In this document: in pieces, positions 1 through 18,521 of the stretch
Layout of the letters: each line of letters starts with the position of its first letter
Position numbering within the stretch: the first letter of the stretch is position 1
Virus record (IMG/VR): IMGVR_UViG_2744054912_000001
DNA from: a virus
Taxonomy: Duplodnaviria > Heunggongvirae > Uroviricota > Caudoviricetes
Length of the DNA: 18,937 bases
Strand: one strand, 5' to 3'
Notes under the pieces: model-generated
Told to the model about the DNA's origin: nothing
The model's input: the letters and a program-made list of their open reading frames with translations, nothing else
Databases searched by the model: none
Made by a program: the position numbers and the translations under genes

Positions 1-190
1 GTTTAATTATATCGAATGTGATTACAATCGGTGGCGGCGGCACAGTTGGTGTGGCGGCCTCAGTCCGGAACAATTTGAAAACAAGAACCTCGCTTAGGCC
101 TGTGTCCATATTACGTGGGTAGGATCAAACTGCACAGGTTAACTATTTGCAGGAGTACATCAAGACACAGTGCCAGAAATGAATCTATAG

Positions 191-218
191 ATGACACTCC
201 ACGTTCGTATAAGATAAT
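191..218 (+). promoter_or_regulatory. Putative sigma70-type promoter for the AT-rich cargo gene (ATGACA -35 at 191-196, 16-bp spacer, GATAAT -10 at 213-218)
   Basis: Hexamers read directly from the sequence, about 35 bp upstream of the ATG at 255. No experimental support; AT-rich DNA yields promoter-like hexamers by chance. Confidence 0.3.
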
Positions 219-254
219 GCTAAATTACTATTAGCTTAATCACAGGAGACGGAC

Positions 255-1118
255 ATGGAAAGAGGTGTGGTATTTAGTGCATGCGAATTACTTAAAACCG
301 AGGATGGAAAAGGCATCCGTACAGGTAAATGGATTAGTCAATTAGAAATAAACTATCTATGTCTTTATTGGGATAAACTAGTTTCACCCACTAATAATAT
401 TATACATACAGCATTAAATAACGAGGATGAATTAGAAAAATGTGGATTGCTAACCAGACCTGTATATAGACATCATGGTTGTTTTGATGGCCAATATATG
501 GCTGATTTTTATGCTGAAACTCATGCCAAAACAATAGATATACTTAGGCATGCGGATTCTTCTGTCGATTGGCGCATGCATTTTTTAAGTGACCAAATAA
601 ACTTGGTGCCTGAATTATCTAGAACCTCAGAAGTGATACGTTTTGAGCTAGCAAATTTATTACCCGTTCCCACAGAAGATGTGCACCTACATGATATTCT
701 TGATTTCAAGGAAAGAAGAAAACCTGAATTAATCGCTTTACATGAATATCTTGATGAGCTTTACTTGGAAATAAAACGTTCTGGTGATATCAATCTTCAG
801 AAAGCAAAAGCTCTTTCTAATCTTAAACAAGCAATAAAGGATATTGAACGCTTAAATTGTGAAGTGTGGAAAAGTCCAATAAAATTTAGCATCTCTACTT
901 CCTTTGAGTTCGATTTTTCACAAATATTTAGTCTGGCGGGAACTGTTTTATCTATGTCAGTAGATTATCCTTATAATGTTATTGGAGGGGTAAGTAGTTT
1001 TGCTTATTTTTTGGGAGGATGCATAAAAATAAAGCCACAATTTCAACAAGTGTTATCATTAGGTAATGATAAATTAGTTTACATAAGCAAAGGAAAATCG
1101 GAGGGTATTATTTCCTGA
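255..1118 (+). CDS. Hypothetical protein of unknown function on a low-GC cargo island (candidate accessory or defence gene)
   Basis: 287-codon ORF with a strong RBS (AGGAG at 244-248, 6 nt before the ATG). A sampled 60-bp stretch is about 27% G+C versus about 62% in a sampled phage stretch. Codon usage is AT-biased and consistent across the ORF. I recognise no protein family. Confidence 0.6.
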   Translation: MERGVVFSACELLKTEDGKGIRTGKWISQLEINYLCLYWDKLVSPTNNIIHTALNNEDELEKCGLLTRPVYRHHGCFDGQYMADFYAETHAKTIDILRHADSSVDWRMHFLSDQINLVPELSRTSEVIRFELANLLPVPTEDVHLHDILDFKERRKPELIALHEYLDELYLEIKRSGDINLQKAKALSNLKQAIKDIERLNCEVWKSPIKFSISTSFEFDFSQIFSLAGTVLSMSVDYPYNVIGGVSSFAYFLGGCIKIKPQFQQVLSLGNDKLVYISKGKSEGIIS

Positions 1119-1137
1119 TTTTTGATTCTCATAATCA

Positions 1138-1545
1138 ATGAATGTTTTTTGTGAATATACTTATTTTAACCCTATAAATAATCAAGGTAATAAAGTGCCT
1201 CCTCGTATCCCGAAAGCCTGCCGTGCTCGAGGTTGCCGTAATACCACCACAGACCCGTCAGGCTACTGCGAAAGCCACAAAAGCGAAGGCTGGAAGCAAT
1301 ACAAGCCAGGCCAGTCCCGACACCAGCGCGGTTATGGTGCGAAATGGGATGTTATCCGTGAACGTGTGCTCAAGCGTGACAAAGGCCTGTGTCAGTTGTG
1401 TTTGCGTGCCGGTGTGGTGCGCGAGGCGAAAACCGTTGACCACATCATCCCTAAAGCACATGGCGGCACTGATGTCGACAGTAATCTGCAGAGTTTGTGC
1501 TGGCCGTGTCATAAGGCGAAGACGGCCCGTGAACGGCTGAAGTAA
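1138..1545 (+). CDS. Phage HNH endonuclease (HK97 gp74-like, packaging-associated)
   Basis: Translation has the HNH signature (C-x2-C ... DHIIPKAHGG ... N ... CWPCH). It sits immediately upstream of the terminase genes, as in HK97-like phages. The start is uncertain: the ATG at 1138 lies in the AT-rich island, and an in-frame GTG at 1195 with AAGG at 1184-1187 gives an N-terminus (VPPRIPKAC...) more typical of this family. Confidence 0.85.
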   Translation: MNVFCEYTYFNPINNQGNKVPPRIPKACRARGCRNTTTDPSGYCESHKSEGWKQYKPGQSRHQRGYGAKWDVIRERVLKRDKGLCQLCLRAGVVREAKTVDHIIPKAHGGTDVDSNLQSLCWPCHKAKTARERLK

Positions 1546-1670
1546 GAACCAGTTCCCACTGCCAGAGGGGAGGGGCGGGTCAAATCCCTGTGACCTGACG
1601 TCTTCCGGACTGCCCGCCCCATCGTTTTTTTATACCCGCGAAAAATGAAATTTAACCAGGAGTGCCGCAT
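1546..1670. other. Intergenic HNH/terS region with nested inverted repeats and a T7 run; probable cos/packaging-site region and/or intrinsic terminator
   Basis: GGGGCGGG (1572-1579) pairs with CCCGCCCC (1613-1620), followed by TTTTTTT at 1625-1631. Inner inverted repeat GGTCA (1578-1582) / TGACC (about 1593-1597). In HK97-like genomes cos lies between the HNH gene and terS (established knowledge). The exact cos nick sites cannot be determined here. Confidence 0.35.
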
Positions 1671-2165
1671 ATGGCTGGAACGGCGGGGCGTTCCGGGCGT
1701 CGCCCCAAGCCAACGGCGCGCAAGGCGCTGGCCGGAAACCCCGGCAAGCGAGCCCTGAATAAAGATGAACCTGTTTTTACGCCCATCAAAGGTGTTGAGC
1801 CACCGGAGTGGTTCGCTGAAGAAGATCTCCCTCTCGCCACGATCATGTGGCAACTGACAACTAAAGAACTCTGCGGTCAGGGCCTGCTGTGCGTGACTGA
1901 CCTCGCGGTGCTTGAGCGGTGGTGCGTGGCCTATGAGTTCTGGCGACGTGCCGTGAAAAATATTGCCAGACAGGGCAACACCATCACCGGTGCAATGGGC
2001 GGTATGGTCAAAAATCCGGAGCTGACCGCCAAAAAAGAACAGGAGTCCGAGATGAGCAGTACGGGGGCAATGCTCGGACTCGACCCCAGCAGCCGCCAGC
2101 GTCTGATTGGCCTGGCGGGGAAGAAGAAAGCCACTAACCCGTTTCTGAAAATCATCGAATCATGA
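1671..2165 (+). CDS. Terminase small subunit (P27 family)
   Basis: N-terminus [27 protein letters not shown] is typical of P27-family small terminases. AGGAG at 1658-1662 sits 8 nt before the ATG at 1671; the ORF track's 1662 start is an upstream in-frame GTG. Stop overlaps the terL start (ATGA). Confidence 0.85.
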
Positions 2166-3895
2166 GCCGGAAATCTTACCCCAACGTAAATGCTGCCAAT
2201 CAGTATGCCCGGGATGTCGTGCGCGGAAAGATTGTGGCCTGCCAGTTTGTGATTCAGGCCTGCCAGCGCCATCTTGATGACCTGATGGCGGAAAAAAGTA
2301 AGTCGTTTCGTTACCGCTTCGACAAGGACCTGGCTGAACGGGCCGCCAAATTTATTCAGCTGTTGCCGCACACCAAGGGTGAGTGGGCATTTAAGAGGAT
2401 GCCCATCACGCTGGAGCCGTGGCAGCTCTTTGTGATCTGCTGCGCGTTTGGCTGGGTCAATAAAGGCTCCCGGCTGCGCCGCTTCCGGGAGGTGTATACC
2501 GAAATCCCCCGTAAGAACGGCAAATCGGCAATCTCTGCCGGTGTTGCCCTGTATTGTTTTGCCTGTGATAACGAGTTCGGCGCGGAAGTGTATTCCGGTG
2601 CCACGACAGAGAAACAGGCATGGGAAGTCTTTCGCCCGGCGCGACTGATGTGTAAACGCACACCCATGCTGACGGAAGCGTTCGGGATTGAGGTTAACGC
2701 CTCAAACATGAACCGTCCGGAGGATGGTGCGCGGTTTGAACCGCTGATCGGTAACCCCGGTGATGGTTCATCACCCCACTGTGCCGTGGTGGATGAATAT
2801 CACGAGCACGCCACAGATGCGCTTTACACCACGATGCTTACCGGGATGGGGGCGCGACGTCAGCCACTGATGTGGGCTATCACCACTGCCGGGTACAACA
2901 TTGAGGGACCGTGCTACGACAAGCGGCGGGAAGTCATCGAGATGCTCAACGGCTCGGTGCCTAACGATGAACTGTTCGGGATCATCTATACCGTTGATGA
3001 AGGTGACGACTGGACCGACCCGCAGGTGCTGGAAAAAGCCAATCCAAATATTGGCGTGTCGGTTTATCGCGAATTTTTGTTAAGTCAGCAGCAGCGTGCG
3101 AAAAATAACGCCCGTCTGGCAAACGTCTTTAAAACAAAACACCTCAATATCTGGGTGTCGGCGCGTTCGGCGTATTTCAACCTGGTGAGCTGGCAGAGCT
3201 GCGAGGATAAATCACTGACCCTTGAGCAGTTCGAGGGGCAGCCGTGCATTCTGGCCTTTGACCTGGCGCGTAAGCTGGATATGAACAGCATGGCGCGACT
3301 TTATACCCGCGAGATTGACGGTAAAACGCATTACTACAGTGTAGCCCCGCGTTTCTGGGTACCGTATGACACGGTGTACAGCGTCGAGAAAAATGAAGAT
3401 CGACGGACAGCCGAACGCTTTCAGAAATGGGTGGAAATGGGCGTTCTGACCGTTACCGATGGTGCGGAGGTGGATTATCGCTACATCCTCGAGGAGGCCA
3501 AAGCGGCGAACAAAATCAGCCCGGTCAGTGAGTCACCCATCGACCCCTTCGGGGCGACCGGGCTGTCGCATGACCTTGCTGATGAAGACCTGAACCCCAT
3601 CACCATCATTCAGAACTACACCAACATGTCCGATCCGATGAAAGAGCTGGAAGCGGCGATTGAATCGGGGCGCTTTCATCATGACGGCAATCCCATCATG
3701 ACCTGGTGTATCGGCAACGTGGTCGGCAAAACCATTCCGGGTAACGATGATGTGGTGAAGCCTGTCAAGGAGCAGGCGGAAAACAAAATCGATGGTGCAG
3801 TTGCGCTGATTATGGCGGTTGGCAGAGCCATGCTGTACGAGAAAGAAGACACGCTGTCTGACCACATTGAGTCCTATGGGATCCGCTCGCTTTAA
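2162..3895 (+). CDS. Terminase large subunit
   Basis: 577 aa, translationally coupled to terS, with length and sequence character of HK97-type large terminases (ATPase N-domain, nuclease C-domain), placed between terS and portal. Confidence 0.93.
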
Positions 3896-3906
3896 CTGAG
3901 GTAATT

Positions 3907-4089
3907 ATGATCATGCTGATTCTCGCGCCTCTGGTGGGCGTGCTGGGGGCGCTTTTGCTGGCGTATGGTGCCTGGCTGATTTATCCCCCGGCGGGGTTTG
4001 TTGTTGCCGGGGCGTTGTGCCTGTTCTGGTCGTGGCTGGTGGCGCGATATCTCGACCGTACACAGTCGTCTGTCGGCGGAGGTAAATAG
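3907..4089 (+). CDS. Small hydrophobic protein (two predicted transmembrane segments), unknown function
   Basis: 60 aa; GAGG RBS 7 nt upstream of the ATG. Two hydrophobic stretches ([22 protein letters not shown] and [17 protein letters not shown]). Its stop overlaps the portal GTG start by 1 nt. Same GC content as neighbours. Confidence 0.5.
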
Positions 4090-5330
4090 TGTTCTTTTCG
4101 GGATTATTTCAACGAAAAAGCGACGCACCGGTGACCACGCCAGCAGAGCTGGCGGATGCCATCGGGTTGTCCTACGACACCTATACCGGAAAGCAGATCA
4201 GCAGCCAGCGGGCCATGCGACTGACGGCGGTTTTTTCCTGTGTCAGGGTGCTGGCAGAGTCGGTCGGGATGTTGCCCTGCAATCTGTATCACCTGAACGG
4301 CAGCCTGAAACAGAGAGCCACCGGCGAGCGTCTGCATAAGCTGATCTCCACGCATCCCAATGGCTATATGACGCCGCAGGAGTTCTGGGAGCTGGTGGTC
4401 ACCTGTCTGTGCCTGCGGGGAAACTTTTACGCCTACAAAGTGAAAGCATTTGGCGAAGTGGCTGAACTGCTGCCCGTCGATCCCGGCTGTGTGGTACCGA
4501 AGCTTAACAGTAGCTGGGAGCCGGTCTATCAGGTCACATTCCCGGATGGCTCCACGGATGTACTGAGCCAGGAGGATATCTGGCATGTGCGCACGCTGAC
4601 GCTGGACGGACTGGTGGGGCTGAATCCCATCGCCTATGCCCGCGAGGCAATATCGCTGGCGGCAGCGACCGAAGAGCACGGGGCCAGACTGTTCAGCAAT
4701 GGCGCGGTGACGTCGGGTGTGTTGCGTACAGAGCAGACGCTGTCAGATCAGGCTTATGAGCGCCTGAAGAAAGATTTTGAGGAGCGTCACACCGGGCTTG
4801 GCAATGCTCACCGCCCGATGATCCTTGAGATGGGGCTGGACTGGAAGTCGATGGCGCTGAACGCCGAGGACAGCCAGTTCCTGGAAACCCGCAAGTTTCA
4901 GCTTGAAGAAATCTGTCGTCTGTTCCGGGTGCCGTTGCACATGGTGCAGAACACCGATCGCGCCACCTTCAACAATATCGAAGAGCTGGGGCTGGGATTT
5001 ATCAACTATTCACTGGTGCCGTATCTGACCCGCATCGAACAGCGGATCAACACCGGACTGGTACGAAAAAGTAAGCAGGGCGTTTATTACGCCAAATTTA
5101 ACGCCGGGGCGTTACTGCGCGGGGATATGAAGTCCCGTTTTGAAGCCTACGCCACCGGGATCAACTGGGGAATTTACTCTCCCAATGACTGCCGCGACCT
5201 GGAAGATATGAATCCGCGTCCCGGTGGTGATGTCTATCTCACACCGATGAACATGACCACGAAACCCTCCGATGGCAGTAAAGCCGGTAAGCAGAAGGAT
5301 AACGCCAATGCAGACGAAACAACGTCTTGA
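4089..5330 (+). CDS. Portal protein (HK97 family)
   Basis: 413 aa. GTG start with GGAGG at 4077-4081. Position between large terminase and prohead protease, and sequence character typical of HK97-family portals. Confidence 0.93.
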   Translation: MFFSGLFQRKSDAPVTTPAELADAIGLSYDTYTGKQISSQRAMRLTAVFSCVRVLAESVGMLPCNLYHLNGSLKQRATGERLHKLISTHPNGYMTPQEFWELVVTCLCLRGNFYAYKVKAFGEVAELLPVDPGCVVPKLNSSWEPVYQVTFPDGSTDVLSQEDIWHVRTLTLDGLVGLNPIAYAREAISLAAATEEHGARLFSNGAVTSGVLRTEQTLSDQAYERLKKDFEERHTGLGNAHRPMILEMGLDWKSMALNAEDSQFLETRKFQLEEICRLFRVPLHMVQNTDRATFNNIEELGLGFINYSLVPYLTRIEQRINTGLVRKSKQGVYYAKFNAGALLRGDMKSRFEAYATGINWGIYSPNDCRDLEDMNPRPGGDVYLTPMNMTTKPSDGSKAGKQKDNANADETTS

Positions 5331-5958
5331 TGTACCGCTGAGTCTGAAATCTGTCAGTGACTCCGGTGAGTTTGAAGGGTATGGCTCCGTCTTTGGTGTA
5401 AAGGACAGCCACGATGATGTGGTGATGTCCGGGGCATTTGCTGCTTCCCTGCGGGCGTGGAGTGACAGAAAAGCGTTACCTGCGCTGCTCTGGCAGCACC
5501 GCATGGATGAGCCCATCGGTGTTTACACCGAAATGAAGGAAGACGATGTCGGGCTTTACGTCAGGGGGCGGTTGCTCATTGATGATGATCCCCTGGCAAA
5601 ACGCGCACATGCACACATGAAGGCCGGTTCGTTAACCGGCCTTTCTATTGGGTACGTCCTGAAGGACTGGGAATACGACCGGACGAAAGAAGCCTTTCTG
5701 CTGAAAGAAATCGACCTCTGGGAAGTCAGTCTGGTGACGTTTCCGTCTAACGACGAGGCGCGGATCAGCGACGTCAAGAACGCGCTGGCCCGCGGGGAAA
5801 TCCCCGAACAGAAAAAAATCGAAAGAGTCCTGCGTGATGTCGGACTCTCCCGTACCCAGGCCAAAGCATTCATGGCCGGGGGCTATGGCGCACTGTCCCT
5901 GCGCGACGCTGAGGATGTGGGCTCTGCACTGAATGCACTGAAAAATCTGAACTTCTAA
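5308..5958 (+). CDS. Prohead maturation protease (HK97 family)
   Basis: Translation (MQTKQRLDVPLSLKSVSDSGEFEGYGSVFGVKDSHDDVV...) matches the HK97 prohead protease family. I chose the ATG at 5308 (AAGGA at 5295-5299) over the ORF-track start at 5272. Confidence 0.88.
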   Translation: MQTKQRLDVPLSLKSVSDSGEFEGYGSVFGVKDSHDDVVMSGAFAASLRAWSDRKALPALLWQHRMDEPIGVYTEMKEDDVGLYVRGRLLIDDDPLAKRAHAHMKAGSLTGLSIGYVLKDWEYDRTKEAFLLKEIDLWEVSLVTFPSNDEARISDVKNALARGEIPEQKKIERVLRDVGLSRTQAKAFMAGGYGALSLRDAEDVGSALNALKNLNF

Positions 5959-5972
5959 TCAGGAGAAATACG

Positions 5973-7178
5973 ATGGCGGTAGATATTAAAGATGTCGAAC
6001 AGGTCGCGCAGGAGCTGCAGCAGAAGTTTGACGACTTCAAAGCAAAGAACGACAAGCGCGTGGATGCGATTGAGCAGGAAAAAGGCAAGCTTGCCGGGCA
6101 GGTGGAAACCCTGAACGGAAAACTCAGCGAGCTGGAAAATCTCAAAAGCGACCTTGAAAAAGAGCTGCTTGAGCTGAAACGTCCGGCAGGTGGTGCGCAA
6201 AATAAACTGGCCACCGAGCATAAAGAGGCGTTTGTGGGCTTCCTGCGTAAAGGCCGTGAAGACGGTCTGCGCGATCTGGAGCGTAAGGCATTGCAGGTGG
6301 GCACCGATGAAGACGGTGGCTACGCCGTGCCGGAAGAACTGGATCGCAACATTCTTAACCTGCTGAAAGATGAAGTGGTGATGCGTCAGGAAGCCACGGT
6401 GATCACCGTTGGTGGTTCCGACTACAAAAAACTGGTGAATCTGGGCGGCACGGCTTCCGGATGGGTTGGCGAGACTGACGCGCGCTCCCAGACTGCCACC
6501 TCAAAACTGGGGCTGATTGAACCTTTCATGGGGGAAATCTACGGTAACCCGCAGGCCACCCAGAAAATGCTGGATGATGCCTTTTTCAACGTGGAGGCCT
6601 GGATCAACAGCGAGCTGGCAACCGAATTTGCCGAACAGGAAGAAATTGCCTTTACCACCGGCGATGGTACCAAGAAGCCGAAAGGGTTCCTGGCGTATGA
6701 ATCCACGGATGAAACCGATAAGGTCCGGGCGTTCGGCAAACTTCAGCATATTGTATCCGGCGACGCGACTGCGGTGACCGCAGACGCCATTATCAAACTG
6801 ATTTACACGCTGCGAAAGGCACACCGCACTGGCGCGAAGTTCATGATGAACAACAACAGCCTGTTTGCCATCCGTCTGCTGAAAGACACCGAGGGTAACT
6901 ATCTGTGGCGTCCGGGGCTGGAACTGGGGCAGCCGTCCTCTCTGGCGGGTTACGGTATCGCTGAAAACGAACAGATGCCGGATATCGCCGCTGATGCGAA
7001 AGCCATTGCATTTGGTAACTTCAAACGGGGTTACACCATCGTTGACCGTATCGGCACCCGCATTCTGCGTGACCCGTACACCAATAAACCGTTTGTCGGT
7101 TTTTATACCACCAAGCGCACCGGCGGGATGCTGGTCGATTCGCAGGCCATCAAACTGCTGAAGATTGCAGCGGCGTAA
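5973..7178 (+). CDS. Major capsid protein (HK97 family) with N-terminal delta/scaffold domain
   Basis: 401 aa. The first ~100 aa form a coiled-coil-like charged region (delta domain), followed by a region typical of the HK97 capsid fold. AGGAG RBS. Located directly after the protease gene. Confidence 0.93.
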   Translation: MAVDIKDVEQVAQELQQKFDDFKAKNDKRVDAIEQEKGKLAGQVETLNGKLSELENLKSDLEKELLELKRPAGGAQNKLATEHKEAFVGFLRKGREDGLRDLERKALQVGTDEDGGYAVPEELDRNILNLLKDEVVMRQEATVITVGGSDYKKLVNLGGTASGWVGETDARSQTATSKLGLIEPFMGEIYGNPQATQKMLDDAFFNVEAWINSELATEFAEQEEIAFTTGDGTKKPKGFLAYESTDETDKVRAFGKLQHIVSGDATAVTADAIIKLIYTLRKAHRTGAKFMMNNNSLFAIRLLKDTEGNYLWRPGLELGQPSSLAGYGIAENEQMPDIAADAKAIAFGNFKRGYTIVDRIGTRILRDPYTNKPFVGFYTTKRTGGMLVDSQAIKLLKIAAA

Positions 7179-7185
7179 TCACTCA

Positions 7186-7213
7186 GGGGCGCGGAACCGC
7201 GCCCCCTGTTCTG
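7186..7213 (+). terminator. GC-rich hairpin after the capsid gene (possible attenuating terminator)
   Basis: GGGGCGCG (7186-7193), 4-nt loop, CGCGCCCC (7198-7205), followed by a weak T-containing tract (CTGTTCTG). The poor U-tract suggests a partial terminator or an RNA-stabilising hairpin. Confidence 0.35.
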
Positions 7214-7227
7214 ACGGGTGAAGAATC

Positions 7228-7428
7228 ATGATCCTGAAACAAGATCTGAAATGGTCACCGGACGGTATGCGTGTTGAGGTCATTCGGGCCGGTGAGTATG
7301 ACGACGGGGCGCTTCCTGCCCGGGTGCAGGAGATTGCACTTCAGGCCGGGTTAGCAGAGCGCGGAACCAGTGCAAAAAGCAGTAAAGCGGCAAAAGAGAA
7401 AAAAGCCACGACCAGTAAAGAGGGCTGA
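7228..7428 (+). CDS. Small hypothetical protein with Lys/Ser-rich C-terminal tail
   Basis: 66-aa ORF in the operon orientation between the capsid and connector genes. No recognised family. Weak RBS. Confidence 0.45.
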   Translation: MILKQDLKWSPDGMRVEVIRAGEYDDGALPARVQEIALQAGLAERGTSAKSSKAAKEKKATTSKEG

Positions 7429-7430
7429 GT

Positions 7431-7754
7431 ATGCTTCTGACAATGGAAGAGATTAAAGCCCAACTCCGGCTGGATGAGGATTTCGATGCTGATGACCGCC
7501 ATCTGCAACTGCTGGCCTGTGCGGCGCAAAAGCGGACGGAAACGTATCTGAACCGGAAGCTCTATGCACCGGATGAAACCATTCCGGACAGCGATCCGGA
7601 CGGGCTGCACCTGTCGGATGATATTCGTCTGGGGATGCTGATGCTTATCAGCCATTTTTACGAAAACCGCTCTTCGGTTACGGAAGTGGAGAAACTCGAC
7701 ATGCCGCAGAGTTTTGGCTGGCTTGTCGGCCCGTACAGGTACTTTCCGCAATGA
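7431..7754 (+). CDS. Head-tail connector protein (gp6-like, DNA-packaging/head completion)
   Basis: 107 aa; N-terminus (LTMEEIKAQLRLDEDFDADD...) is typical of the phage gp6-like head-tail connector family. Stop overlaps the next start (ATGA). Confidence 0.8.
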   Translation: MLLTMEEIKAQLRLDEDFDADDRHLQLLACAAQKRTETYLNRKLYAPDETIPDSDPDGLHLSDDIRLGMLMLISHFYENRSSVTEVEKLDMPQSFGWLVGPYRYFPQ

Positions 7755-8161
7755 AAATTCGTCAGGCGCAGACCAGCGCAACCTACATTCTGCCGGACCC
7801 CGGCGAACTGAATAAACGCGTCCTGATCCGCCAGCGGGTGGATATGCCCGCGGATAACTTTGGCGTGGAGCCTCAATACCCGGTTGCGTTCCGGACATGG
7901 GCGAAGGTTATCCAGACCAGTGCCACCACCTGGCAGGAAACCGCGCAGACCGGGGACGCCATCACCCATTACATCACCATTCGTTACCGCCGGGGGATCA
8001 CCGCTGATTATGAGGTGGTCTGCGGTGACAGTGTGTACCGGGTGAAACGTCAGCGCGATCTGAACGGGTCGCGGCGCTTTCTGCTGCTGGAGTGTACGGA
8101 GCTGGGCGAATGTAGGCAGAGTCACGGAGGCAGCAATGGCGACTCCCTTTTTTCACGTTGA
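7751..8161 (+). CDS. Head-tail adaptor / head closure protein
   Basis: 136 aa, position and size typical of the head closure family following the gp6-like gene. Translationally coupled on both sides. Confidence 0.75.
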   Translation: MKIRQAQTSATYILPDPGELNKRVLIRQRVDMPADNFGVEPQYPVAFRTWAKVIQTSATTWQETAQTGDAITHYITIRYRRGITADYEVVCGDSVYRVKRQRDLNGSRRFLLLECTELGECRQSHGGSNGDSLFSR

Positions 8162-8642
8162 TGTTCAGCAGCCCGCCGAGATGCGCTTTAACCGCGCCCG
8201 TGTCCGGCGGGCGTTTGTCACGATTGGGCAGCGTCATATGCGTGATGCCCGTCGGCTGGTGATGCGCCGTGCGCGGTCGGCACCGGGTGAAAACCCCGGT
8301 TATCAGACCGGACGCCTGGCTCGTTCGATTGGTTATATGGTGCCGAGAGCCAGTAAAAAGCGAGCCGGTTTTATGACACGCATTGCCCCTAACCAGCGCA
8401 ACGGGAAGGGGAACCGGATGATCTCTGGTGACTTCTATCCGGCGTTTCTGTTTTTTGGTGTCCGGGGAGGAGCAAAACGTCGTCGTAGTCATCATCGTGG
8501 TGCATCCGGTGGCAGCGGCTGGCGACTGGCTCCACGTAATAACTTCATGGTGGAAACTCTTGAAAAGAACCGCAGCTGGACACGCTATTTTCTGGCGCGG
8601 GAATTGCGTAAATCACTGAAGCCGGAGCGACGACACAGATGA
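8136..8642 (+). CDS. HK97 gp10-like tail/neck component protein
   Basis: 168 aa. GGAGG at 8126-8130, 5 nt before the ATG. Basic, Arg-rich protein in the position occupied by gp10-family proteins in HK97-type head-tail joining modules. Confidence 0.7.
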   Translation: MATPFFHVDVQQPAEMRFNRARVRRAFVTIGQRHMRDARRLVMRRARSAPGENPGYQTGRLARSIGYMVPRASKKRAGFMTRIAPNQRNGKGNRMISGDFYPAFLFFGVRGGAKRRRSHHRGASGGSGWRLAPRNNFMVETLEKNRSWTRYFLARELRKSLKPERRHR

Positions 8643-9199
8643 AACTGACGCCTGTTATTGCTGCGCTGCGTGCCCGCTGCCCGTATTTTGAAAACCGGGT
8701 GGCAGGCGCGGCACAGTTCAAAAATCTGCCGGAGGTCGGAAAGCTGAGACTCCCGGCGGCGTATGTGGTACCGGGTGATGATTCTCCGGGAGAAAACAAA
8801 AGCCAGACCGACTACTGGCAGGAGCTGAAAGAGGGCTTCTCCGTGGTTGTCATACTGAGTAATGGGCGTGATGAGCGCGGTCAGTTTGCCTCGTATGATG
8901 TGGTGGACGATGTCCGGCAGATGCTCTTTAAGGCCCTGCTGGGCTGGAACCCGGAAGCGTGCGGTAACCCGATTACCTATGACGGCGGCACGCTGCTGGA
9001 TCTGAATCGTCATGAGCTGATTTATCAGTTCGATTTTTCGGTCATCAGCGAGCTGACTGAAGACGATACCCGCCAGCAGGATGACCTGAACAGTCTGGAT
9101 GAACTGCAAACGCTGGCGATTGATGTTGATTATCTCGAGCCCGGTAACGGGTCTGACGGCGATATCGAACATCACACCGAAATAACCCTTCCTTCCTGA
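8639..9199 (+). CDS. Tail completion / tail terminator-like protein (Mu gp37-like, DUF1834-type)
   Basis: 186 aa, immediately upstream of the sheath gene, the position of the tail terminator or completion protein in Mu-like contractile-tail modules. Family assigned from recall. Confidence 0.65.
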   Translation: MKLTPVIAALRARCPYFENRVAGAAQFKNLPEVGKLRLPAAYVVPGDDSPGENKSQTDYWQELKEGFSVVVILSNGRDERGQFASYDVVDDVRQMLFKALLGWNPEACGNPITYDGGTLLDLNRHELIYQFDFSVISELTEDDTRQQDDLNSLDELQTLAIDVDYLEPGNGSDGDIEHHTEITLPS

Positions 9200-9207
9200 G
9201 GATCCTC

Positions 9208-9378
9208 ATGTTTGTCAAACCTGTTAAAGGGCGGTCAGTTCCTGACCCTGCCCGCGGCGACCTTTTGCCCGCCGAAGGGCGAAATGTTGACGAGAACAAC
9301 TACTGGCTGCGCCGTGAAGCAGCGGGTGATATCCGGCGCGTGAATAAAAAGGTGAATACCGATGACGACAAGCTTTAA
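9208..9378 (+). CDS. Small conserved protein preceding tail sheath (DUF2635-like)
   Basis: 56-codon ORF not in the supplied track (below its length cutoff): MFVKPVKGRSVPDPARGDLLPAEGRNVDENNYWLRREAAGDIRRVNKKVNTDDDKL. Its end overlaps the sheath start by 17 nt. Mu-like tail clusters carry a small gene of this size at this position. Confidence 0.5.
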   Translation: MFVKPVKGRSVPDPARGDLLPAEGRNVDENNYWLRREAAGDIRRVNKKVNTDDDKL

Positions 9379-10858
9379 CACCATTCCGTCGAATACGCTG
9401 GTTCCGTTGTTTTATGCGGAAATGGATAACCAGGCGGCGAATACTGCACAGGACAGCGGAGCATCGCTGCTGATTGGTCATGCCAATAACGGTGCAGAGA
9501 TTGTTGCCAACAGTCTGGTACTGATGCCGTCGGCAGACTATGCACGCCAGATTTGTGGTGCGGGAAGTCAGCTGGCGCGTATGGTCGAGGCTTATCGCCA
9601 GACCGACCCGTTTGGTGAACTGTATGTAATTGCCGTTCCTGAATCCACGGGCGCGGCGGCAACGGTTACGCTGACGGTGACCGGGGCGGCAACCGAAACC
9701 GGCACGGTGAATGTTTATGTGGGACGTACCCGCGTGCAGGCACCGGTGACCAACGGCGATAACGTCACGACGATTGCCAGCAGTATCAAAGATGCCATTA
9801 ATGCCGTTCCGGCCCTGCCGTTTACGGCCTCATCTTCGGCAGGCGTGGTCACGCTGACCGCGCGTCATAAGGGGCTTTGCGGGAATGAAATTCCTGTCAG
9901 CCTCAATTACTACGGCTTTGGTGGGGGCGAAGTGCTGCCAGCGGGCGTACAGATTGCTGTGGCGACGGGGAGCGCCGGAACGGGCGCTCCGGTTCTCACC
10001 GGCGCGGTGGCTGCAATGGCGGATGAGCCGTTTGATTATATTGGCCTGCCGTTCAACGACACGGCCTCCGTTAACACGCTGGTGACAGAGATGAACGATA
10101 CCAGCGGTCGCTGGAGCTATGCGCGTCAGCTGTATGGTCATGTGTATACGGCAAAGATCGGCACGCTGTCAGAACTGGTGAACGCAGGTGACCAGTTTAA
10201 CCAGCAGCACATTACCCTGGCGGGATACGAAAAAGAGACCCAGACGCCTGCCGACGAGCTGGCGGCAAGCCGTACCGCCCGCGCAGCGGTGTTTATTCGC
10301 AACGATCCGGCACGTCCCACGCAGACCGGTGAGCTGGTGGGTATGCTGCCTGCGCCGAAGGGGAAACGGTTCACGATGACCGAACAACAGACCCTGCTGT
10401 CTCATGGCGTGGCAACGGCGTATGTCGAAAGCGGGGTGCTGCGCATTCAGCGTGATGTCACCACGTACAGGAAAAACGCTTACGGTGTTGCGGATAACAG
10501 CTACCTCGACAGCGAGACGCTGCATACCAGCGCGTATGTGCTGCGCAAACTGAAATCCGTCATTACCAGTAAGTACGGGCGTCACAAGCTTGCCAGCGAC
10601 GGTACCCGCTTTGGTCCCGGTCAGGCGATTGTCACACCGGCGGTGATCAAAGGGGAACTGCTGGCAACCTACCGTCAGCTTGAGCGTGCGGGGATCGTGG
10701 AAAACTACGAACTGTTTAAGCAGTACCTGGTTGTGGAGCGTGATGCCAGCGATCCGAACCGCCTGAACACGCTGTTCCCGCCTGACTATGTTAACCAGTT
10801 GCGTGTCTTTGCCGTGGTTAACCAGTTCCGTCTTCAGTATTCAGAGGAGTCTGCATAA
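9362..10858 (+). CDS. Tail sheath protein (Mu gpL-like)
   Basis: 498 aa; size and position (before tube protein and chaperone) typical of contractile-tail sheath proteins of Mu-like phages. Confidence 0.9.
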   Translation: MTTSFNTIPSNTLVPLFYAEMDNQAANTAQDSGASLLIGHANNGAEIVANSLVLMPSADYARQICGAGSQLARMVEAYRQTDPFGELYVIAVPESTGAAATVTLTVTGAATETGTVNVYVGRTRVQAPVTNGDNVTTIASSIKDAINAVPALPFTASSSAGVVTLTARHKGLCGNEIPVSLNYYGFGGGEVLPAGVQIAVATGSAGTGAPVLTGAVAAMADEPFDYIGLPFNDTASVNTLVTEMNDTSGRWSYARQLYGHVYTAKIGTLSELVNAGDQFNQQHITLAGYEKETQTPADELAASRTARAAVFIRNDPARPTQTGELVGMLPAPKGKRFTMTEQQTLLSHGVATAYVESGVLRIQRDVTTYRKNAYGVADNSYLDSETLHTSAYVLRKLKSVITSKYGRHKLASDGTRFGPGQAIVTPAVIKGELLATYRQLERAGIVENYELFKQYLVVERDASDPNRLNTLFPPDYVNQLRVFAVVNQFRLQYSEESA

Positions 10859-11214
10859 TGGCCCGTATCGGGGGAACCTGTTATTTCAAAATTGACGGTC
10901 AGCAGCTATCGCTGACCGGCGGCATTGAGGTGCCCATGAACAGGACGGTCAATGATGACATCATCGGCCTGGACGGTTCAGTGGACCGCAAGGAAACTCA
11001 CCGTGCGCCTTATGTCAAAGGGACCTTCAAGGTGCCGAAGAATTTTCCGGTGAGCAAAATCACCTCGTCTGATGAGATGACCATCACTGCCGAGCTGGCG
11101 AACGGTCAGGTCTATGTATTGTCGTCCGCCTGGCTGCACGGCGAAGCGAACCATAATGCCGAAGAAGGCACGGTTGATCTTGAGTTCCACGGTGAAGAAG
11201 GGGATTACCAGTAA
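10858..11214 (+). CDS. Tail tube protein (Mu gpM-like)
   Basis: 118 aa, immediately after the sheath gene, with a GAGGAG RBS; typical tube protein size. Confidence 0.85.
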   Translation: MARIGGTCYFKIDGQQLSLTGGIEVPMNRTVNDDIIGLDGSVDRKETHRAPYVKGTFKVPKNFPVSKITSSDEMTITAELANGQVYVLSSAWLHGEANHNAEEGTVDLEFHGEEGDYQ

Positions 11215-11483
11215 TGAAAGAGCTTGAGTTAAAGAAACCGATTATCGCTCATGGTGAGACACTCTCCGTACTGGAGTTTGATGAACCCACCGGGAAGGAT
11301 GTCCGCGAGCTGGGGTATCCCTACCAGATGAATCAGGATGAGTCAGTCAGACTTCTGGCGCATGTGGTGTCGAAATACATTGTGCGGCTGGCGAAAGTGC
11401 CGCAAAGCTCTGTCGACCAGATGTCTCCGGCAGACCTGAATGCAGCGGCGTGGCTTGTGGCTGGTTTTTTCCTCCAGGCCTGA
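11214..11483 (+). CDS. Tail assembly chaperone (short, unshifted product)
   Basis: 89-aa ORF directly upstream of the tape measure gene. It ends just after a slippery heptamer (T TTT TTC at 11465-11471). Confidence 0.75.
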   Translation: MKELELKKPIIAHGETLSVLEFDEPTGKDVRELGYPYQMNQDESVRLLAHVVSKYIVRLAKVPQSSVDQMSPADLNAAAWLVAGFFLQA

Positions 11484-11638
11484 CGGCTGAATACCTCACT
11501 GATCGCTTCTTTGACTGCGCCAGCTACTGGCGCATTAATCCTTTCGAATTGCTGAATATGCCGATCAGTGAAATTCCCTTGCTGGTCAGTCAGGCAAACA
11601 GGATAGAGCAGGAGAAACGCACACATGGCGGAATTTGA
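11214..11638 (+). CDS. Tail assembly chaperone, predicted -1 programmed-frameshift fusion product (lambda G/GT-like arrangement)
   Basis: The ORF 11450..11638 is in the -1 frame relative to 11214..11483 and overlaps it. The slippery site T_TTT_TTC lies in the overlap. The extended frame ends inside the tape measure start region. The arrangement is conserved before tape measure genes in many tailed phages (established knowledge). Confidence 0.5.
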
Positions 11639-13460
11639 GCTTAAGGCGTTGATCACCGGTGTCGACAGGCTTTCTCCCGCGCTGTCGAAAATGCAAAAGA
11701 AAATCCGGGGATTTAAACGCCAGGCGGAAGAAGCGTCACAGGGTGGGCTGGCGCTTGGTGGCGGACTGGCAGCGGGTCTGACGCTTTCCCTGAAATCTTA
11801 TGCCGATCAGGAAAACGCCGCCACCGGGCTGAAAGTCGCCATGATGGATGCGAACGGCGAGGTCGGAAAGAGCTTTCAGGACATCAATAAACTGGCTATT
11901 GGCCTGGGTAACCAGCTACCCGGTACAACGGCTGATTTCCAGAACATGATGCAGATGCTGGTGCGTCAGGGGATCCCGGCAGAAAACATTCTTGGCGGTG
12001 TGGGTAAAGCGACAGCTTATCTTGCGGTACAACTGAAAAAAACACCGGAAGCGGCTGCTGAGTTTGCTGCAAAGATGCAGGATGCTACCGGAACGGCGTC
12101 AGAAGACATGATGGGGCTGTTCGACACTATCCAGAAGGCGTTTTATCTGGGTGTTGACGATACCACCATGTTGTCCTTCTTCACTAAAACCAGCTCTGTT
12201 CTGAAGATGGTGAACAAGGACGGTCTTCAGGCTGCACAGAGCCTTGCCCCCATCAGCGTCATGATGGATCAGATGGGGATGAACGGGGAGTCGGCAGGTA
12301 ACGCCCTGCGAAAAGTTATCCAGTCCGGATTAAGCGTTAAGAAAATCAGGGACGTCAATAAAATCATGGCCCGCCAGAAACTCGGGGTACAGCTCGATTT
12401 TACTGACGGCAAAGGAAGTTTTGGCGGTCTTGATAACATGTTCAGGCAACTGGCAAAGCTGCGAAAACTGACCGACGTTAAGCGAACAGGTGTACTTAAG
12501 GCAATATTTGGTGATGATGCCGAAACCCTTCAGGTGGTCAATGCACTAATCGATAAAGGAAAGGATGGCTACGATCAGATCCAGCAGAAGATGAATAAAC
12601 AGGCCAGCCTGAATAAACGTGTTCAGGCCCAGCTTGGTACGCTGTCCAACCTGTGGGAGGCAATGACGGGGACCGCAACTAACGGCCTTGCGGCTATTGG
12701 CGGCGCATTTTCTGGTGACGCCAAAAATATCACGCAATGGCTGGGGGAGTTAGGGGAAAAATTCACGAAGTTTGCGGATGAAAATCCCCGGGTTATTCGC
12801 GGCGTCGTCGGGCTTGCTGCCGGTCTTGCGATTCTGAAACTGGGATTGATGGGCGTTGGCGGTGCCATCAGTATTGTCAGCAGGATCATGTCGATGACGC
12901 CGATTGGAATGATTGCGACGGCGATAGCCCTGGCTGCGGGATTAATTATCACTAACTGGGATGTTGTCGGACCTTATTTCAAGAAGCTCTGGGAAACCAT
13001 TGGTCCTTATTTTGAGGCTGGCTGGGAACTTCTGAAGAAGGTTTTTGCCTGGTCGCCGCTGGGGATGGTAATCAATAACTGGGGACCGGTTGTTAAGTGG
13101 TTTCAGGATATGTGGGACAAACTGAAGCCAATTATTGAGTGGTTTACCGACAGTTCCGGTGACACGGTCGATGCCATTAACTCTGCGCAGTGGGGCGCGG
13201 GTGCTTATGATGCTTATGGGACGGGAATACCGGCACGGGGATACACACCTTATCAGGCGGTAGATCCGGCTCAGTCAAACAACGCCTCCGGTGCCACAGG
13301 CCCGAATCCCTTCATGATTAACAAAGCTTCTGCGCCAAAAGTTGATGGTGAGATCAAGGTCTCTTTTGTGAATTCGCCTCCGGGTATGCGGGTTATGGAA
13401 ACGCGATCCAGCGGTTTTGATGTCAGCCATGATGTTGGCTATACGCGCTTTGGCAGGTAA
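11625..13460 (+). CDS. Tail tape measure protein
   Basis: 611 aa. Ala/Gly-rich helical N-region, a hydrophobic segment and Trp-periodic repeats near the C-terminus. Sits between the chaperone and baseplate genes. Confidence 0.9.
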   Translation: MAEFELKALITGVDRLSPALSKMQKKIRGFKRQAEEASQGGLALGGGLAAGLTLSLKSYADQENAATGLKVAMMDANGEVGKSFQDINKLAIGLGNQLPGTTADFQNMMQMLVRQGIPAENILGGVGKATAYLAVQLKKTPEAAAEFAAKMQDATGTASEDMMGLFDTIQKAFYLGVDDTTMLSFFTKTSSVLKMVNKDGLQAAQSLAPISVMMDQMGMNGESAGNALRKVIQSGLSVKKIRDVNKIMARQKLGVQLDFTDGKGSFGGLDNMFRQLAKLRKLTDVKRTGVLKAIFGDDAETLQVVNALIDKGKDGYDQIQQKMNKQASLNKRVQAQLGTLSNLWEAMTGTATNGLAAIGGAFSGDAKNITQWLGELGEKFTKFADENPRVIRGVVGLAAGLAILKLGLMGVGGAISIVSRIMSMTPIGMIATAIALAAGLIITNWDVVGPYFKKLWETIGPYFEAGWELLKKVFAWSPLGMVINNWGPVVKWFQDMWDKLKPIIEWFTDSSGDTVDAINSAQWGAGAYDAYGTGIPARGYTPYQAVDPAQSNNASGATGPNPFMINKASAPKVDGEIKVSFVNSPPGMRVMETRSSGFDVSHDVGYTRFGR

Positions 13461-13483
13461 TGAAAAATTAATCTGTTAATGAG

Positions 13484-13506
13484 TCCCACTCCGGTGGGAT
13501 TTTTTA
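13484..13506 (+). terminator. Rho-independent terminator-like hairpin after the tape measure gene
   Basis: TCCCAC (13484-13489), loop TCCG, GTGGGA (13494-13499), then TTTTTT (13500-13505). Short 6-bp stem, probably a partial terminator. Confidence 0.45.
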
Positions 13507-13520
13507 TGTACGGAGTTTAT

Positions 13521-15925: not shown

Positions 15926-16473
15926 TGAGGGCGATTGAAGCCATGCAGCGACAACTCCTCGGCCTGATTGGGCGGGCCGTGGTGAAAAGCATCAGTGCCG
16001 CCACGAAATGTCAGACCGTGGATGTGTCCCTGATTGCCGGTGAACCCAAAGCCGGGGTTGAACATCTTGAACCCTACGGTTTTACCGCAAGAGCAAACAG
16101 CGGTGCGGAAGCGGTGGTGTTGTTTCCGGATGGCGACCGTTCTCATGCGGTGGTTGTTACGGTGTCGGACCGGCGCTACCGCCTGAAAGGGCTGCAGACG
16201 GGTGAGGTGGCTGTCTATGACGATCAGGGGCAGTCCGTGACGCTGACCCGGGAGGGGATCGTGGTGGACGGTGCAGGTAAAACGATCACGTTTCGCAATT
16301 CACCTAAAGCACGTTTTGAAATGGACCTGGAAGTGACAGGACAGGTGAAAGACCTGTGCGACTCCAGCGGCACTACCATGTCAGCGATGCGGCTTGCCTA
16401 TAACGGGCATCGTCACAGAGAGAACGGTCAGGGCAGTAACACCGACAAACCGGATAAAGCGATGGAGGCATGA
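15925..16473 (+). CDS. Baseplate assembly protein V / spike (Mu gp45-like)
   Basis: 182 aa; size, position and sequence character consistent with gpV-type baseplate spike proteins. Confidence 0.8.
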   Translation: MRAIEAMQRQLLGLIGRAVVKSISAATKCQTVDVSLIAGEPKAGVEHLEPYGFTARANSGAEAVVLFPDGDRSHAVVVTVSDRRYRLKGLQTGEVAVYDDQGQSVTLTREGIVVDGAGKTITFRNSPKARFEMDLEVTGQVKDLCDSSGTTMSAMRLAYNGHRHRENGQGSNTDKPDKAMEA

Positions 16474-18518: not shown

Positions 18519-18521
18519 TCC

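What the first reader, a model, noticed from the sequence alone, without database searches (positions are those of the whole stretch)
191..1194. AT-rich single-gene cargo island upstream of the HNH-cos-terminase module: candidate novel accessory or anti-phage gene
The ~1 kb around ORF 255..1118 is compositionally foreign (about 27% G+C in a sampled stretch versus about 62% in the phage genes). It has its own promoter-like hexamers and a strong RBS. Its 287-aa product has a charged N-region, a central E/K/L-rich helical region and a hydrophobic C-terminal segment (FSISTSFEFDFSQIFSLAGTVLSMSVDYPYNVIGGVSSFAYFLGGCI), and I cannot place it in any family. Loci between late-regulatory/lysis genes and the packaging module are known moron hotspots in temperate phages and often carry defence or virulence genes. 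As a single gene it is at most a one-component system; the function is entirely unassigned.
Basis: partly seen in the sequence, partly recalled or inferred. Interest (0 to 1): 0.7.

Follow-up and report, generated by a model that had tools for sequence, protein, structure and literature searches.

The report
AT-rich DUF6236 cargo gene in prophage
A foreign, AT-rich single gene of the uncharacterised DUF6236 family sits in a swap-in/swap-out slot between the lysis and DNA-packaging genes of an E. coli prophage; it is real mobile cargo and a reasonable but unproven anti-phage candidate, not a new kind of element.

Summary
Window 128-1194 is 33.4% G+C against 55.8% for the rest (z = -10). It contains one ORF, 255-1118 (287 aa), with an AGGAG ribosome-binding site.

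The product is a full-length DUF6236 protein (Pfam PF19749, E = 2e-31; PHROG 23128) and is annotated as such in 32 of 5426 complete E. coli genomes.

The slot between the Rz spanin gene and the HNH gene is variable. Prophages with 94-96% identical HNH and terminase genes carry DUF2441, Iss or hypothetical genes there instead.

DUF6236 genes about 285 aa long occupy this post-lysis slot in phages with at least four terminase types. They also occur next to att sites, on plasmids, in an integron-like cassette array and alone in chromosomes. No partner gene is conserved, and the genes are AT-rich in every host checked.

Verdict: an ordinary prophage moron carrying a widespread family of unknown function. 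An anti-phage role is the best guess (about 0.35-0.4), resting on context only. Moderate interest.

The parts
1..127 (+). Right end of an IS3 insertion sequence. It holds the C-terminus of the transposase (stop near 95-97) and a terminal inverted repeat ending ...GGATCA at 127. The element points towards the island.
   Evidence: It is 99-100% identical to IS3 ends in thousands of E. coli records. The sequence was read.
128..182 (+). Last 55 nt of the Rz-type spanin ('lysis protein') gene, cut off by the IS3. The stop codon TGA is at 180-182.
   Evidence: It is identical to the 3' end of the intact lysis protein gene of E. coli XH990, L001 8594-9055.
183..254 (+). Upstream spacer of the island (36% G+C). 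It carries a promoter-like ATGACA-16-GATAAT at 191-218 and the ribosome-binding site AGGAG at 244-248.
   Evidence: The promoter match is not above the shuffled expectation.
255..1118 (+). DUF6236 family gene, 287 aa. Residues 1-143 (nt 255-683) form a Rossmann-like alpha/beta domain with the conserved YWD, PxNN and DW motifs. Residues 144-204 (nt 684-866) form the best-conserved helical segment (LPVP...ILEFKERR...YLDELY...SGD). Residues 205-262 (nt 867-1040) are a poorly conserved, G/A/S/T-rich hydrophobic stretch. Residues 263-287 (nt 1041-1115) are a tail with the near-invariant Y276.
   Evidence: Pfam PF19749 at 109.7 bits against a cutoff of 26.2. PHROG 23128 at E = 5e-144. Alignments A1 and A2. 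AlphaFold2 models. Identity by region. Hydrophobicity.
1119..1194 (+). Downstream spacer of the island (20.8% G+C) with no terminator-like hairpin. The right-hand recombination junction lies here.
   Evidence: The breakpoints of similarity fall at 1188-1213.
1195..1545 (+). HNH endonuclease gene of the packaging module (GTG start, 116 aa). This is the first conserved phage gene after the island.
   Evidence: RefSeq annotation of the identical region in L001 10068-10418. It is 94-96% identical in many prophages and phages.
1662..3895 (+). P27-family small terminase gene (1662-2165) and large terminase gene (2162-3895). They are listed for context only.

Best explanation
The island is a prophage moron: one horizontally mobile accessory gene dropped into the variable slot between the last lysis gene (Rz spanin) and the first packaging gene (HNH) of an SfV/HK97-like E. 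coli prophage.

What is shown:
- The product is a full-length member of the uncharacterised DUF6236 family.
- Family members work without a conserved partner gene.
- They travel as single genes between unrelated temperate phages, plasmids, an integron-like cassette array and chromosomes.

What is inferred from context: the gene serves the carrying cell rather than virion assembly or lysis. Its most likely role is a one-protein anti-phage factor of the superinfection-exclusion or abortive-infection type.

What is speculative: the conserved Rossmann-like N-domain plus helical segment would be the sensing or regulatory part. The fast-evolving, glycine/alanine-rich hydrophobic C-terminal stretch would be the effector or oligomerisation part, possibly acting on the inner membrane only after activation.

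Expression in the lysogen would need a promoter of its own (candidate at 191-218). In this particular genome it could instead come from read-out of the IS3 that sits 128 nt upstream. During lytic growth the gene also lies in the late transcript.

Rough confidence by step: mobile cargo gene 0.9; host-serving accessory function 0.65; anti-phage 0.35-0.4; membrane-directed mechanism 0.15-0.2.
For: Cargo status:
- The compositional break is z = -10.3.
- Junctions fall exactly at gene borders: the spanin stop at 182 and the HNH start at 1195.
- Only 32 of 5426 complete E. coli genomes carry the island.
- Five sampled sister prophages with 94-96% identical HNH-terS hold DUF2441, Iss or hypothetical genes in the same place.

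Stand-alone and mobile:
- Homologues of 33-57% identity sit after the lysis cassette of phages with P27/HNH, Nu1/GpA, Terminase_2/3 and Mu_F/portal_3 packaging modules.
- Others sit next to att or at prophage ends.
- Others are on Acinetobacter and Vibrio plasmids.
- One lies between copies of a 127-nt repeat in a V. fischeri cassette array.
- Others are alone among housekeeping genes.
- Among 142 neighbours in 39 diverse loci, no Pfam family recurs more than twice.
- The genes are 37-39% G+C in every host checked.

Real, selected protein:
- There are 1732 clusters at 50% identity. Almost all of the best 150 are 270-310 aa and match end to end.
- Thirteen positions are at least 90% conserved across 134 representatives.

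Defence leaning:
- An AbiD/PD-T4-5-like HEPN gene lies 21 nt upstream on Acinetobacter plasmids.
- Roughly ten of the 142 neighbours appear to hit defence models, an estimate from the family list; these include a type IIG restriction enzyme, PD-Lambda-1, mad2 and several PDC candidates.
- The sister hotspot in the same prophages holds PDC-S20 and TIR-TM genes.
- Integron cassettes are reported to encode phage defence (10.1101/2024.07.02.601719).

Domain logic:
- The helical core is the best conserved region (61% identity among enterobacterial members, 46% among distant ones).
- The hydrophobic stretch is the least conserved (43% and 13%), yet it keeps its composition. In 102 of 134 members it has an uncharged run of at least 18 residues, and G/A/S/T make up 39% against 22% in the rest of the protein.
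Against: - No experiment exists, and DUF6236 and PF19749 do not appear in the 8 million papers searched.
- Neither the protein nor the DUF6236 body of any relative hits PADLOC.
- The other occupants of this exact slot are not recognised defence genes. Iss is a serum-resistance lipoprotein.
- The promoter match is at chance level, and none was found upstream of the Klebsiella, Salmonella or Morganella homologues.
- The gene has the same orientation as the late operon, with no terminator before HNH, so a phage-serving late function is possible.
- The hydrophobic segment is not a classical membrane helix. The Hessa sum is +6.45 for the query, the family median is +5.2, and none of 134 members is at or below 0. 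A real membrane ORF in the same window scores -1.8.
- AlphaFold2 is unconfident for residues 204-287.
- The defence-neighbour count is rough and was not tested against a background.
Confidence: 0.38

Rival explanations
1. It is a lysogenic-conversion gene unrelated to phage defence. On this reading it would change envelope, stress or host-interaction properties of the lysogen, as Iss/Bor does in the same slot.
For: - Iss occupies the identical slot in sister prophages.
- Solo copies are kept at one chromosomal site in three Psychrobacter genomes, between DUF3429/photolyase and NnrS. That fits a cell-autonomous housekeeping-like benefit.
- The protein has no hit to defence models.
Against: - The protein has no signal peptide or lipobox. 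Its N-terminus, MERGVVFSACELL, belongs to a confidently folded cytoplasmic-type alpha/beta domain.
- The spread across phages, plasmids and a cassette array, and the high divergence among close hosts (44-73% identity within Enterobacteriaceae), are more typical of conflict genes.
Confidence: 0.25
2. It is a phage-serving late gene. It would be expressed with lysis and packaging genes and help the phage, for example by tuning lysis, countering a host defence, or excluding competitors during the lytic cycle only.
For: - In seven enterobacterial prophage types the gene lies directly after the lysis cassette, in the late-operon orientation.
- There is no terminator between it and HNH in the window.
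Against: - It is absent from most otherwise near-identical prophages, so it is dispensable.
- Homologues exist with no phage around them: in chromosomes, on small plasmids and in a cassette array.
- In other phages it sits beside att, outside the late operon.
- The Klebsiella and Morganella copies are followed by a strong terminator, which marks them as separate units.
Confidence: 0.15
3. It is a selfish or addictive passenger, such as a toxin-like gene that stabilises the element, or cargo that is neutral to the host.
For: - It is a single AT-rich gene on many mobile elements.
- It lies near RelBE on a Vibrio plasmid.
- AT-rich DNA of this kind is the sort usually silenced by H-NS (general knowledge, not tested here).
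Against: - No cognate antitoxin-like partner is conserved.
- Full-length conservation across 1732 clusters and many phyla argues for a selected biochemical function.
Confidence: 0.1

Closest known systems
Lambda bor / E. coli iss (a moron downstream of Rz)
   Same: It occupies the same slot between the spanin gene and the packaging genes. Iss is found there in sister prophages. Both are single-gene cargo that is dispensable for the phage.
   Different: Iss/Bor is a lipoprotein of about 97 aa, encoded on the opposite strand, with a known serum-resistance role. DUF6236 is 287 aa, on the same strand as the late genes, has no signal peptide and shares no sequence similarity.
Pfam DUF6236 (PF19749) / PHROG 23128
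   Same: The gene is a full member. It scores 109.7 bits against a cutoff of 26.2 and matches PHROG 23128 end to end at E = 5e-144. RefSeq uses the same name.
   Different: Nothing differs. However, the family has no assigned function, structure or literature.
Single-protein prophage defence genes in hotspots (for example the PDC-S20 KAP NTPase and TIR-TM in the Q-to-holin slot of the same prophage lineage, and AbiD/PD-T4-5-type HEPN proteins)
   Same: They are also AT-rich single genes in variable prophage slots and are patchily distributed. One DUF6236 gene is adjacent to an AbiD-like gene.
   Different: DUF6236 has no homology to any PADLOC model. No NTPase, TIR, HEPN or nuclease motif is recognisable. 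No phenotype is known.
Sensor-plus-membrane-effector proteins (CBASS 2TM/SLATT effectors, CARF-transmembrane proteins such as Cam1)

Membership tests
Pfam DUF6236 (PF19749) | Score above the family's gathering threshold | tested here: met
   109.7 bits against a cutoff of 26.2, E = 2.1e-31, residues 24-227. All 134 representatives also match.
Pfam DUF6236 (PF19749) | Single-domain architecture of about 280-300 aa shared with relatives | tested here: met
   Almost all of the best 150 representatives are 270-310 aa and align end to end. The only additions are short SEC-C motifs in two members.
Phage moron (in the sense of Juhala/Hendrix) | Extra gene between genes that are adjacent, or differently separated, in related phages | tested here: met
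   The same HNH-terS-terL at 94-96% identity is preceded by DUF2441, Iss or hypothetical genes, or by other genes in deposited phages.
Phage moron (in the sense of Juhala/Hendrix) | Nucleotide composition unlike the surrounding phage genes | tested here: met
   33.4% against 55.8% G+C, z = -10.3.
Phage moron (in the sense of Juhala/Hendrix) | Own promoter | tested here: inconclusive
   One 10/12 sigma-70-like site lies at 191-218, but the count is below the shuffled expectation. None was found upstream of three homologues.
Phage moron (in the sense of Juhala/Hendrix) | Own terminator | tested here: not met
   No terminator-like hairpin lies in 1119-1194. The Klebsiella and Morganella copies do have one 170-200 nt after the gene.
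Known or candidate anti-phage defence proteins (PADLOC-DB v2.0.0) | Match to a defence-protein model | tested here: not met
   The window protein has 0 hits. Among 134 relatives, the only hits below 1e-4 (PDC-S12, E2) map to an appended SEC-C motif in two members.
Known or candidate anti-phage defence proteins | Protection against phage when expressed | not testable with these tools
   This needs plaque and liquid-infection assays.
Membrane-spanning Abi/Sie effectors (2TM, SLATT, HK97 gp15-like) | At least one segment hydrophobic enough to span the membrane | tested here: not met
   The lowest 19-residue Hessa sum is +6.45 for the query, and 0 of 134 members are at or below 0. The control membrane ORF 3907-4089 scores -1.8. 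The Kyte-Doolittle maximum of 1.25 is below the usual 1.6.
PIN/NYN nucleases or CARF sensor domains | Significant fold match plus the family's conserved residues | tested here: not met
Iss/Bor lipoproteins | Signal peptide with lipobox, and about 100 aa in length | tested here: not met
   The N-terminus MERGVVFSACELL forms the first strand of a confident cytoplasmic-type domain, and the protein is 287 aa.

The most novel reading that the evidence does not exclude
DUF6236 would be a previously unrecognised, widespread family of one-protein anti-phage systems, carried by temperate phages, plasmids and integron cassettes. It would have a sensor domain without a close structural relative and a glycine/alanine-rich segment that inserts into, or assembles at, the membrane only after activation.
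Probability: 0.25. Interest if true: 0.65.

Novelty: new member of a known kind. Interest (0 to 1): 0.4.

Why it matters
If DUF6236 turns out to protect lysogens from other phages, a family of more than 1700 sequence clusters across many bacterial phyla would gain a function. The post-lysis slot of lambdoid prophages would then join the recognised defence hotspots. The protein has no solved or recognisable relative, so its mechanism would probably be new. As things stand, the gene is one more uncharacterised moron. The value of this finding is a well-delimited, cheap-to-test candidate (one 864-nt gene, available in many E. coli isolates), not a discovery.

Tried and rejected
1. PADLOC, NCBIfam, sequence search of solved structures, and literature searches for DUF6236, PF19749, the RefSeq accession, the PHROG id and an InterPro id I recalled from memory (IPR046203): nothing found.

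3. Two of 134 relatives hit PADLOC PDC-S12 and CBASS E2 models. This looked like a link to defence, but it maps to a 25-residue SEC-C zinc motif appended to P0103 and P0180, not to the DUF6236 body. Rejected.

4. I tested the idea that the C-terminus is a transmembrane anchor or 2TM effector. The segment is uncharged and G/A/S/T-rich in most members but fails a membrane-insertion scale that a neighbouring real membrane ORF passes. I keep it only as a speculative conditional-insertion idea.

5. I searched for a conserved partner gene. A neighbour census over 39 diverse loci found none. The HEPN neighbour is restricted to Acinetobacter plasmids.

6. The own-promoter claim is not supported statistically, and no such site is found upstream of the homologues examined.

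7. A locus search with the 134-sequence alignment failed because no stretch was conserved enough. It was repeated with the 31-sequence alignment.
Full report

Yes. A sliding profile shows 30-37% G+C from about 150 to 1200, against 52-60% afterwards.

- Window 128-1195 is 33.4% G+C. The ORF 255-1118 is 33.8%, with GC3 of 22.6%.
- Window 1196-18937 is 55.8%, and its phage genes have GC3 of 57-69%.
- Against 167 equally long windows of the rest (mean 0.557, sd 0.022), the island lies 10.3 sd below the mean.

The ORF (287 aa, ATG at 255) is the only long ORF in the island. AGGAG sits 6 nt upstream of its start.

The "own promoter" is one 10/12 match, ATGACA-16-GATAAT at 191-218. Two such sites in 1.7 kb is fewer than shuffled sequence gives (4.0 ± 2.2), so it carries no weight. 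No terminator-like hairpin follows the gene.

**2. What surrounds it?**

The window is the late region of an SfV/SfII/HK97-like E. coli prophage: HNH, P27-type small terminase, large terminase, portal and so on.

- Similarity to deposited phages (118970_sal3, SKA5, vB_EcoM-720R4) and to many E. coli prophages starts at 1188-1213.
- That is exactly where RefSeq places the HNH start, GTG 1195. The ATG at 1138 listed by the ORF finder lies in island DNA.
- On the left, 128-182 is the 3' end of the Rz-type spanin gene.
- The island is therefore 183-1194, bounded by gene ends on both sides.
- Window 1-127 is the right end of an IS3, which has cut the spanin gene 55 nt before its stop codon.
- None of the 5426 complete E. 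coli genomes has the IS3 at this site.

**3. Is the slot variable?**

Yes.

- The island is 99.7-100% identical in 32 of 5426 complete E. coli genomes. Every one of the 30 listed places is annotated lysis protein - DUF6236 family protein - HNH endonuclease.
- Sampled prophages whose HNH-terS region is 94-96% identical carry other genes between the spanin and HNH genes. These are a DUF2441 gene (L013), a 144-aa hypothetical (L014), Iss on the opposite strand (L015, L016) and a 168-aa hypothetical (L017).
- A second variable slot, between Q and the holin gene on the minus strand, holds a KAP NTPase (PADLOC PDC-S20, E = 2e-177), a TIR-TM protein (E = 8e-58), an SDH-type Clp protease and others.
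- The recognisable defence genes sit in that neighbouring slot. The other occupants of the island's own slot have no PADLOC match, and Iss is a serum-resistance lipoprotein.

**4. What is the protein?**

PADLOC and NCBIfam give nothing.

- A word-indexed search found 88 clusters, mostly enterobacterial at 44-73% identity.
- An exhaustive profile search of 1.84 billion representatives found 1732 clusters at E ≤ 0.001 and 407 at E ≤ 1e-30. Almost all of the best 150 are 270-310 aa and match end to end.
- A scan of GTDB species genomes returned 50 loci. They come from Gamma-, Beta- and Alphaproteobacteria, Campylobacterota, Desulfobacterota, Nitrospirota, Acidobacteriota, Bacteroidota and a cyanobacterium.
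- No source gives the protein any name other than hypothetical or DUF6236.
- The terms DUF6236, PF19749, the RefSeq accession and the PHROG id occur in no paper of the library.

**5. Anatomy of the protein**

Across 134 representatives, the positions conserved at 90% or more are G4, Y38, W39, D40, P45, W106, P137, P139, F151, K152, Y170, D178 and Y276. Closer relatives add N47, E57, G64, R68, D105, R155 and D167.

AlphaFold2 gave the following.

- The full-length model has pLDDT 64. It is confident for residues 1-170 and below 50 for 204-287.
- The N-domain alone (1-143) reaches pLDDT 84.
- The predicted layout is an alpha/beta N-domain, then helices at 145-154, 156-175 and 179-202, then an ill-defined C-terminal part.

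Identity to the window protein differs by region:

| Region | Enterobacterial relatives | Distant relatives |
|---|---|---|
| N-domain (1-143) | 53% | 28% |
| Helical segment (144-204) | 61% | 46% |
| Hydrophobic stretch (205-262) | 43% | 13% |
| Tail (263-287) | 44% | 23% |

The hydrophobic stretch keeps its character rather than its sequence. In 102 of 134 members it has an uncharged run of at least 18 residues. G/A/S/T make up 39% of it, against 22% in the rest of the protein. Glycine-zipper-like patterns appear in distant members.

It is not a classical membrane helix, however.

- Its Kyte-Doolittle maximum is 1.25 in the query.
- Its lowest 19-residue Hessa sum is +6.45. The family median is +5.2, and none of 134 members is at or below 0.
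- The 60-aa YmfR-like membrane ORF at 3907-4089 in the same window scores -1.8.

**6. Fold comparisons**

- The profile has no solved relative by sequence.
- Foldseek against viral predicted structures finds nothing at E ≤ 0.001.
- The AlphaFold-database library could not be searched.

**7. Where do relatives live?**

After the lysis cassette and before the packaging genes:
- Klebsiella (P27/HNH terminase, two different lysis cassettes).
- Morganella.
- Cronobacter.
- Salmonella (lambda-type Nu1/GpA).
- E. coli P0051 (Terminase_2/Terminase_3).
- Enterobacter (Mu_F/portal_3 type).

At prophage ends or next to att:
- Klebsiella phage Mulock, between int and the tail-fibre gene.
- A Vibrio prophage.
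- Raoultella, after the tail genes.

On plasmids:
- Acinetobacter plasmids of 12-16 kb. On the 16-kb plasmid examined the gene starts 21 nt after an AbiD/PD-T4-5-like HEPN gene.
- A conjugative Vibrio plasmid, near relBE.

Elsewhere:
- In V. fischeri MJ11 chromosome II the gene is bracketed by two of six copies of a 127-nt repeat, within an array of small same-strand genes. This is the look of an integron cassette.
- Alone among housekeeping genes in Pseudoalteromonas and Psychrobacter.

The genes are 37-39% G+C in all these hosts.

A census of the two genes on each side in 39 diverse loci (142 proteins) found no Pfam family in more than two loci. There is therefore no conserved partner.

By my estimate from the family list, about ten of these neighbours hit defence models strongly. 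They include a type IIG restriction-modification enzyme, PD-Lambda-1, mad2, PD-Lambda-5_B and several PDC candidates. That looks higher than I would expect for random genes. However, I could not count per protein or compare with a background.

**8. Interpretation**

- Shown: the island is a mobile, single-gene cargo insertion (a moron) of the DUF6236 family in a variable slot. The family acts without a fixed partner and moves among phages, plasmids, a cassette array and chromosomes.
- Inferred: because it is dispensable for the phage and also lives outside phages, it most likely serves the carrying cell. Its distribution, composition and rapid divergence fit a conflict gene, and anti-phage activity is the single most likely role. 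I put that at 0.35-0.4. No defence model, motif or experiment supports it directly, and the best-known occupant of this very slot (Iss/Bor) is not a defence gene.
- Speculative: the conserved N-domain plus helical core would sense or regulate. The variable hydrophobic stretch would oligomerise or attack the membrane after activation. The failed membrane-helix test and the low model confidence weaken this step.

**9. Rivals**

- A non-defence conversion factor (0.25).
- A phage-serving late gene (0.15). The orientation and the lack of a terminator favour it. Dispensability and phage-free copies argue against it.
- A selfish or neutral passenger (0.1).

**10. Novelty and score**

The element type (a prophage moron in the slot between Rz and the packaging genes) is textbook. 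The family is already catalogued, and RefSeq already annotates this gene. What is unknown is the function of a large family with no structural relative. I rate it a new member of a known kind, with interest 0.4. It is a clean, inexpensive candidate for a defence screen, but nothing here would surprise a specialist yet.

Noticed in passing
window 1-182: An IS3 right end (1-127, transposase C-terminus on the + strand) has inserted into the Rz-type spanin gene, leaving only its last 55 nt (128-182). This prophage is therefore probably lysis-impaired, and its late transcript is interrupted just upstream of the island. The IS3 points towards the DUF6236 gene and could drive or alter its expression. 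No complete E. coli genome in the collection has IS3 at this site.
   Followed up: partly
L001 12819-13981 (E. coli XH990): The sister prophage carrying the identical island has an IS3 at a different place, between the large terminase and portal genes. The two copies of this prophage examined here therefore each carry an IS3, at different sites.
   Followed up: no
window 1138-1545: The longest ORF for the HNH endonuclease starts at ATG 1138, inside the AT-rich island. RefSeq and the homology breakpoint both indicate GTG 1195 as the real start, so the 19-codon extension is an artefact of the insertion.
   Followed up: yes
L001 6176-7507; L016 249-1076; L013, L014, L015, L017 first genes: A second variable slot lies between the Q antiterminator and holin genes, on the opposite strand. 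It carries a KAP NTPase (PADLOC PDC-S20), a TIR-TM protein, an SDH-family Clp protease, a nucleoid-associated protein or an ATP-binding protein in sister prophages. This is a clearer defence hotspot than the island's own slot.
   Followed up: partly
L018 4289-9780 (Aliivibrio fischeri MJ11 chromosome II): Six copies of a 127-nt repeat separate small same-strand genes. The DUF6236 homologue (6001-6867) lies exactly between two copies (5852-5978 and 6865-6991), like an integron cassette. An AAA_15/AAA_21 ATPase plus HNH gene pair lies at the start of the locus.
   Followed up: partly
L077 6934-8882 (Acinetobacter lwoffii plasmid pALWED1.3): A 345-aa HEPN protein with an RNRIAHHEP motif weakly matches PADLOC PD-T4-5 and AbiD. 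It ends 21 nt before the DUF6236 gene on a 16-kb plasmid, which suggests a possible two-gene unit in this lineage only.
   Followed up: partly
P0103 residues 21-51; P0180 residues 278-302: Two distant DUF6236 proteins carry a SEC-C zinc motif (CxCGSGKKxKxCC), one at the N-terminus and one at the C-terminus. The same motif ends the PADLOC models PDC-S12 and CBASS E2, which produced misleading hits.
   Followed up: yes
window 3907-4089: A 60-aa strongly hydrophobic ORF lies between the large terminase and portal genes. It corresponds to ymfR in sister prophages and served here as a positive control for the membrane-helix scale.
   Followed up: no
L003 7066-7085; L020 7028-7047: The Klebsiella and Morganella DUF6236 genes are followed 170-200 nt downstream by a strong intrinsic-terminator-like hairpin (8 base pairs plus a T run). 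In Klebsiella a 62-aa ORF follows as well. Both are missing from the shorter E. coli island.
   Followed up: no
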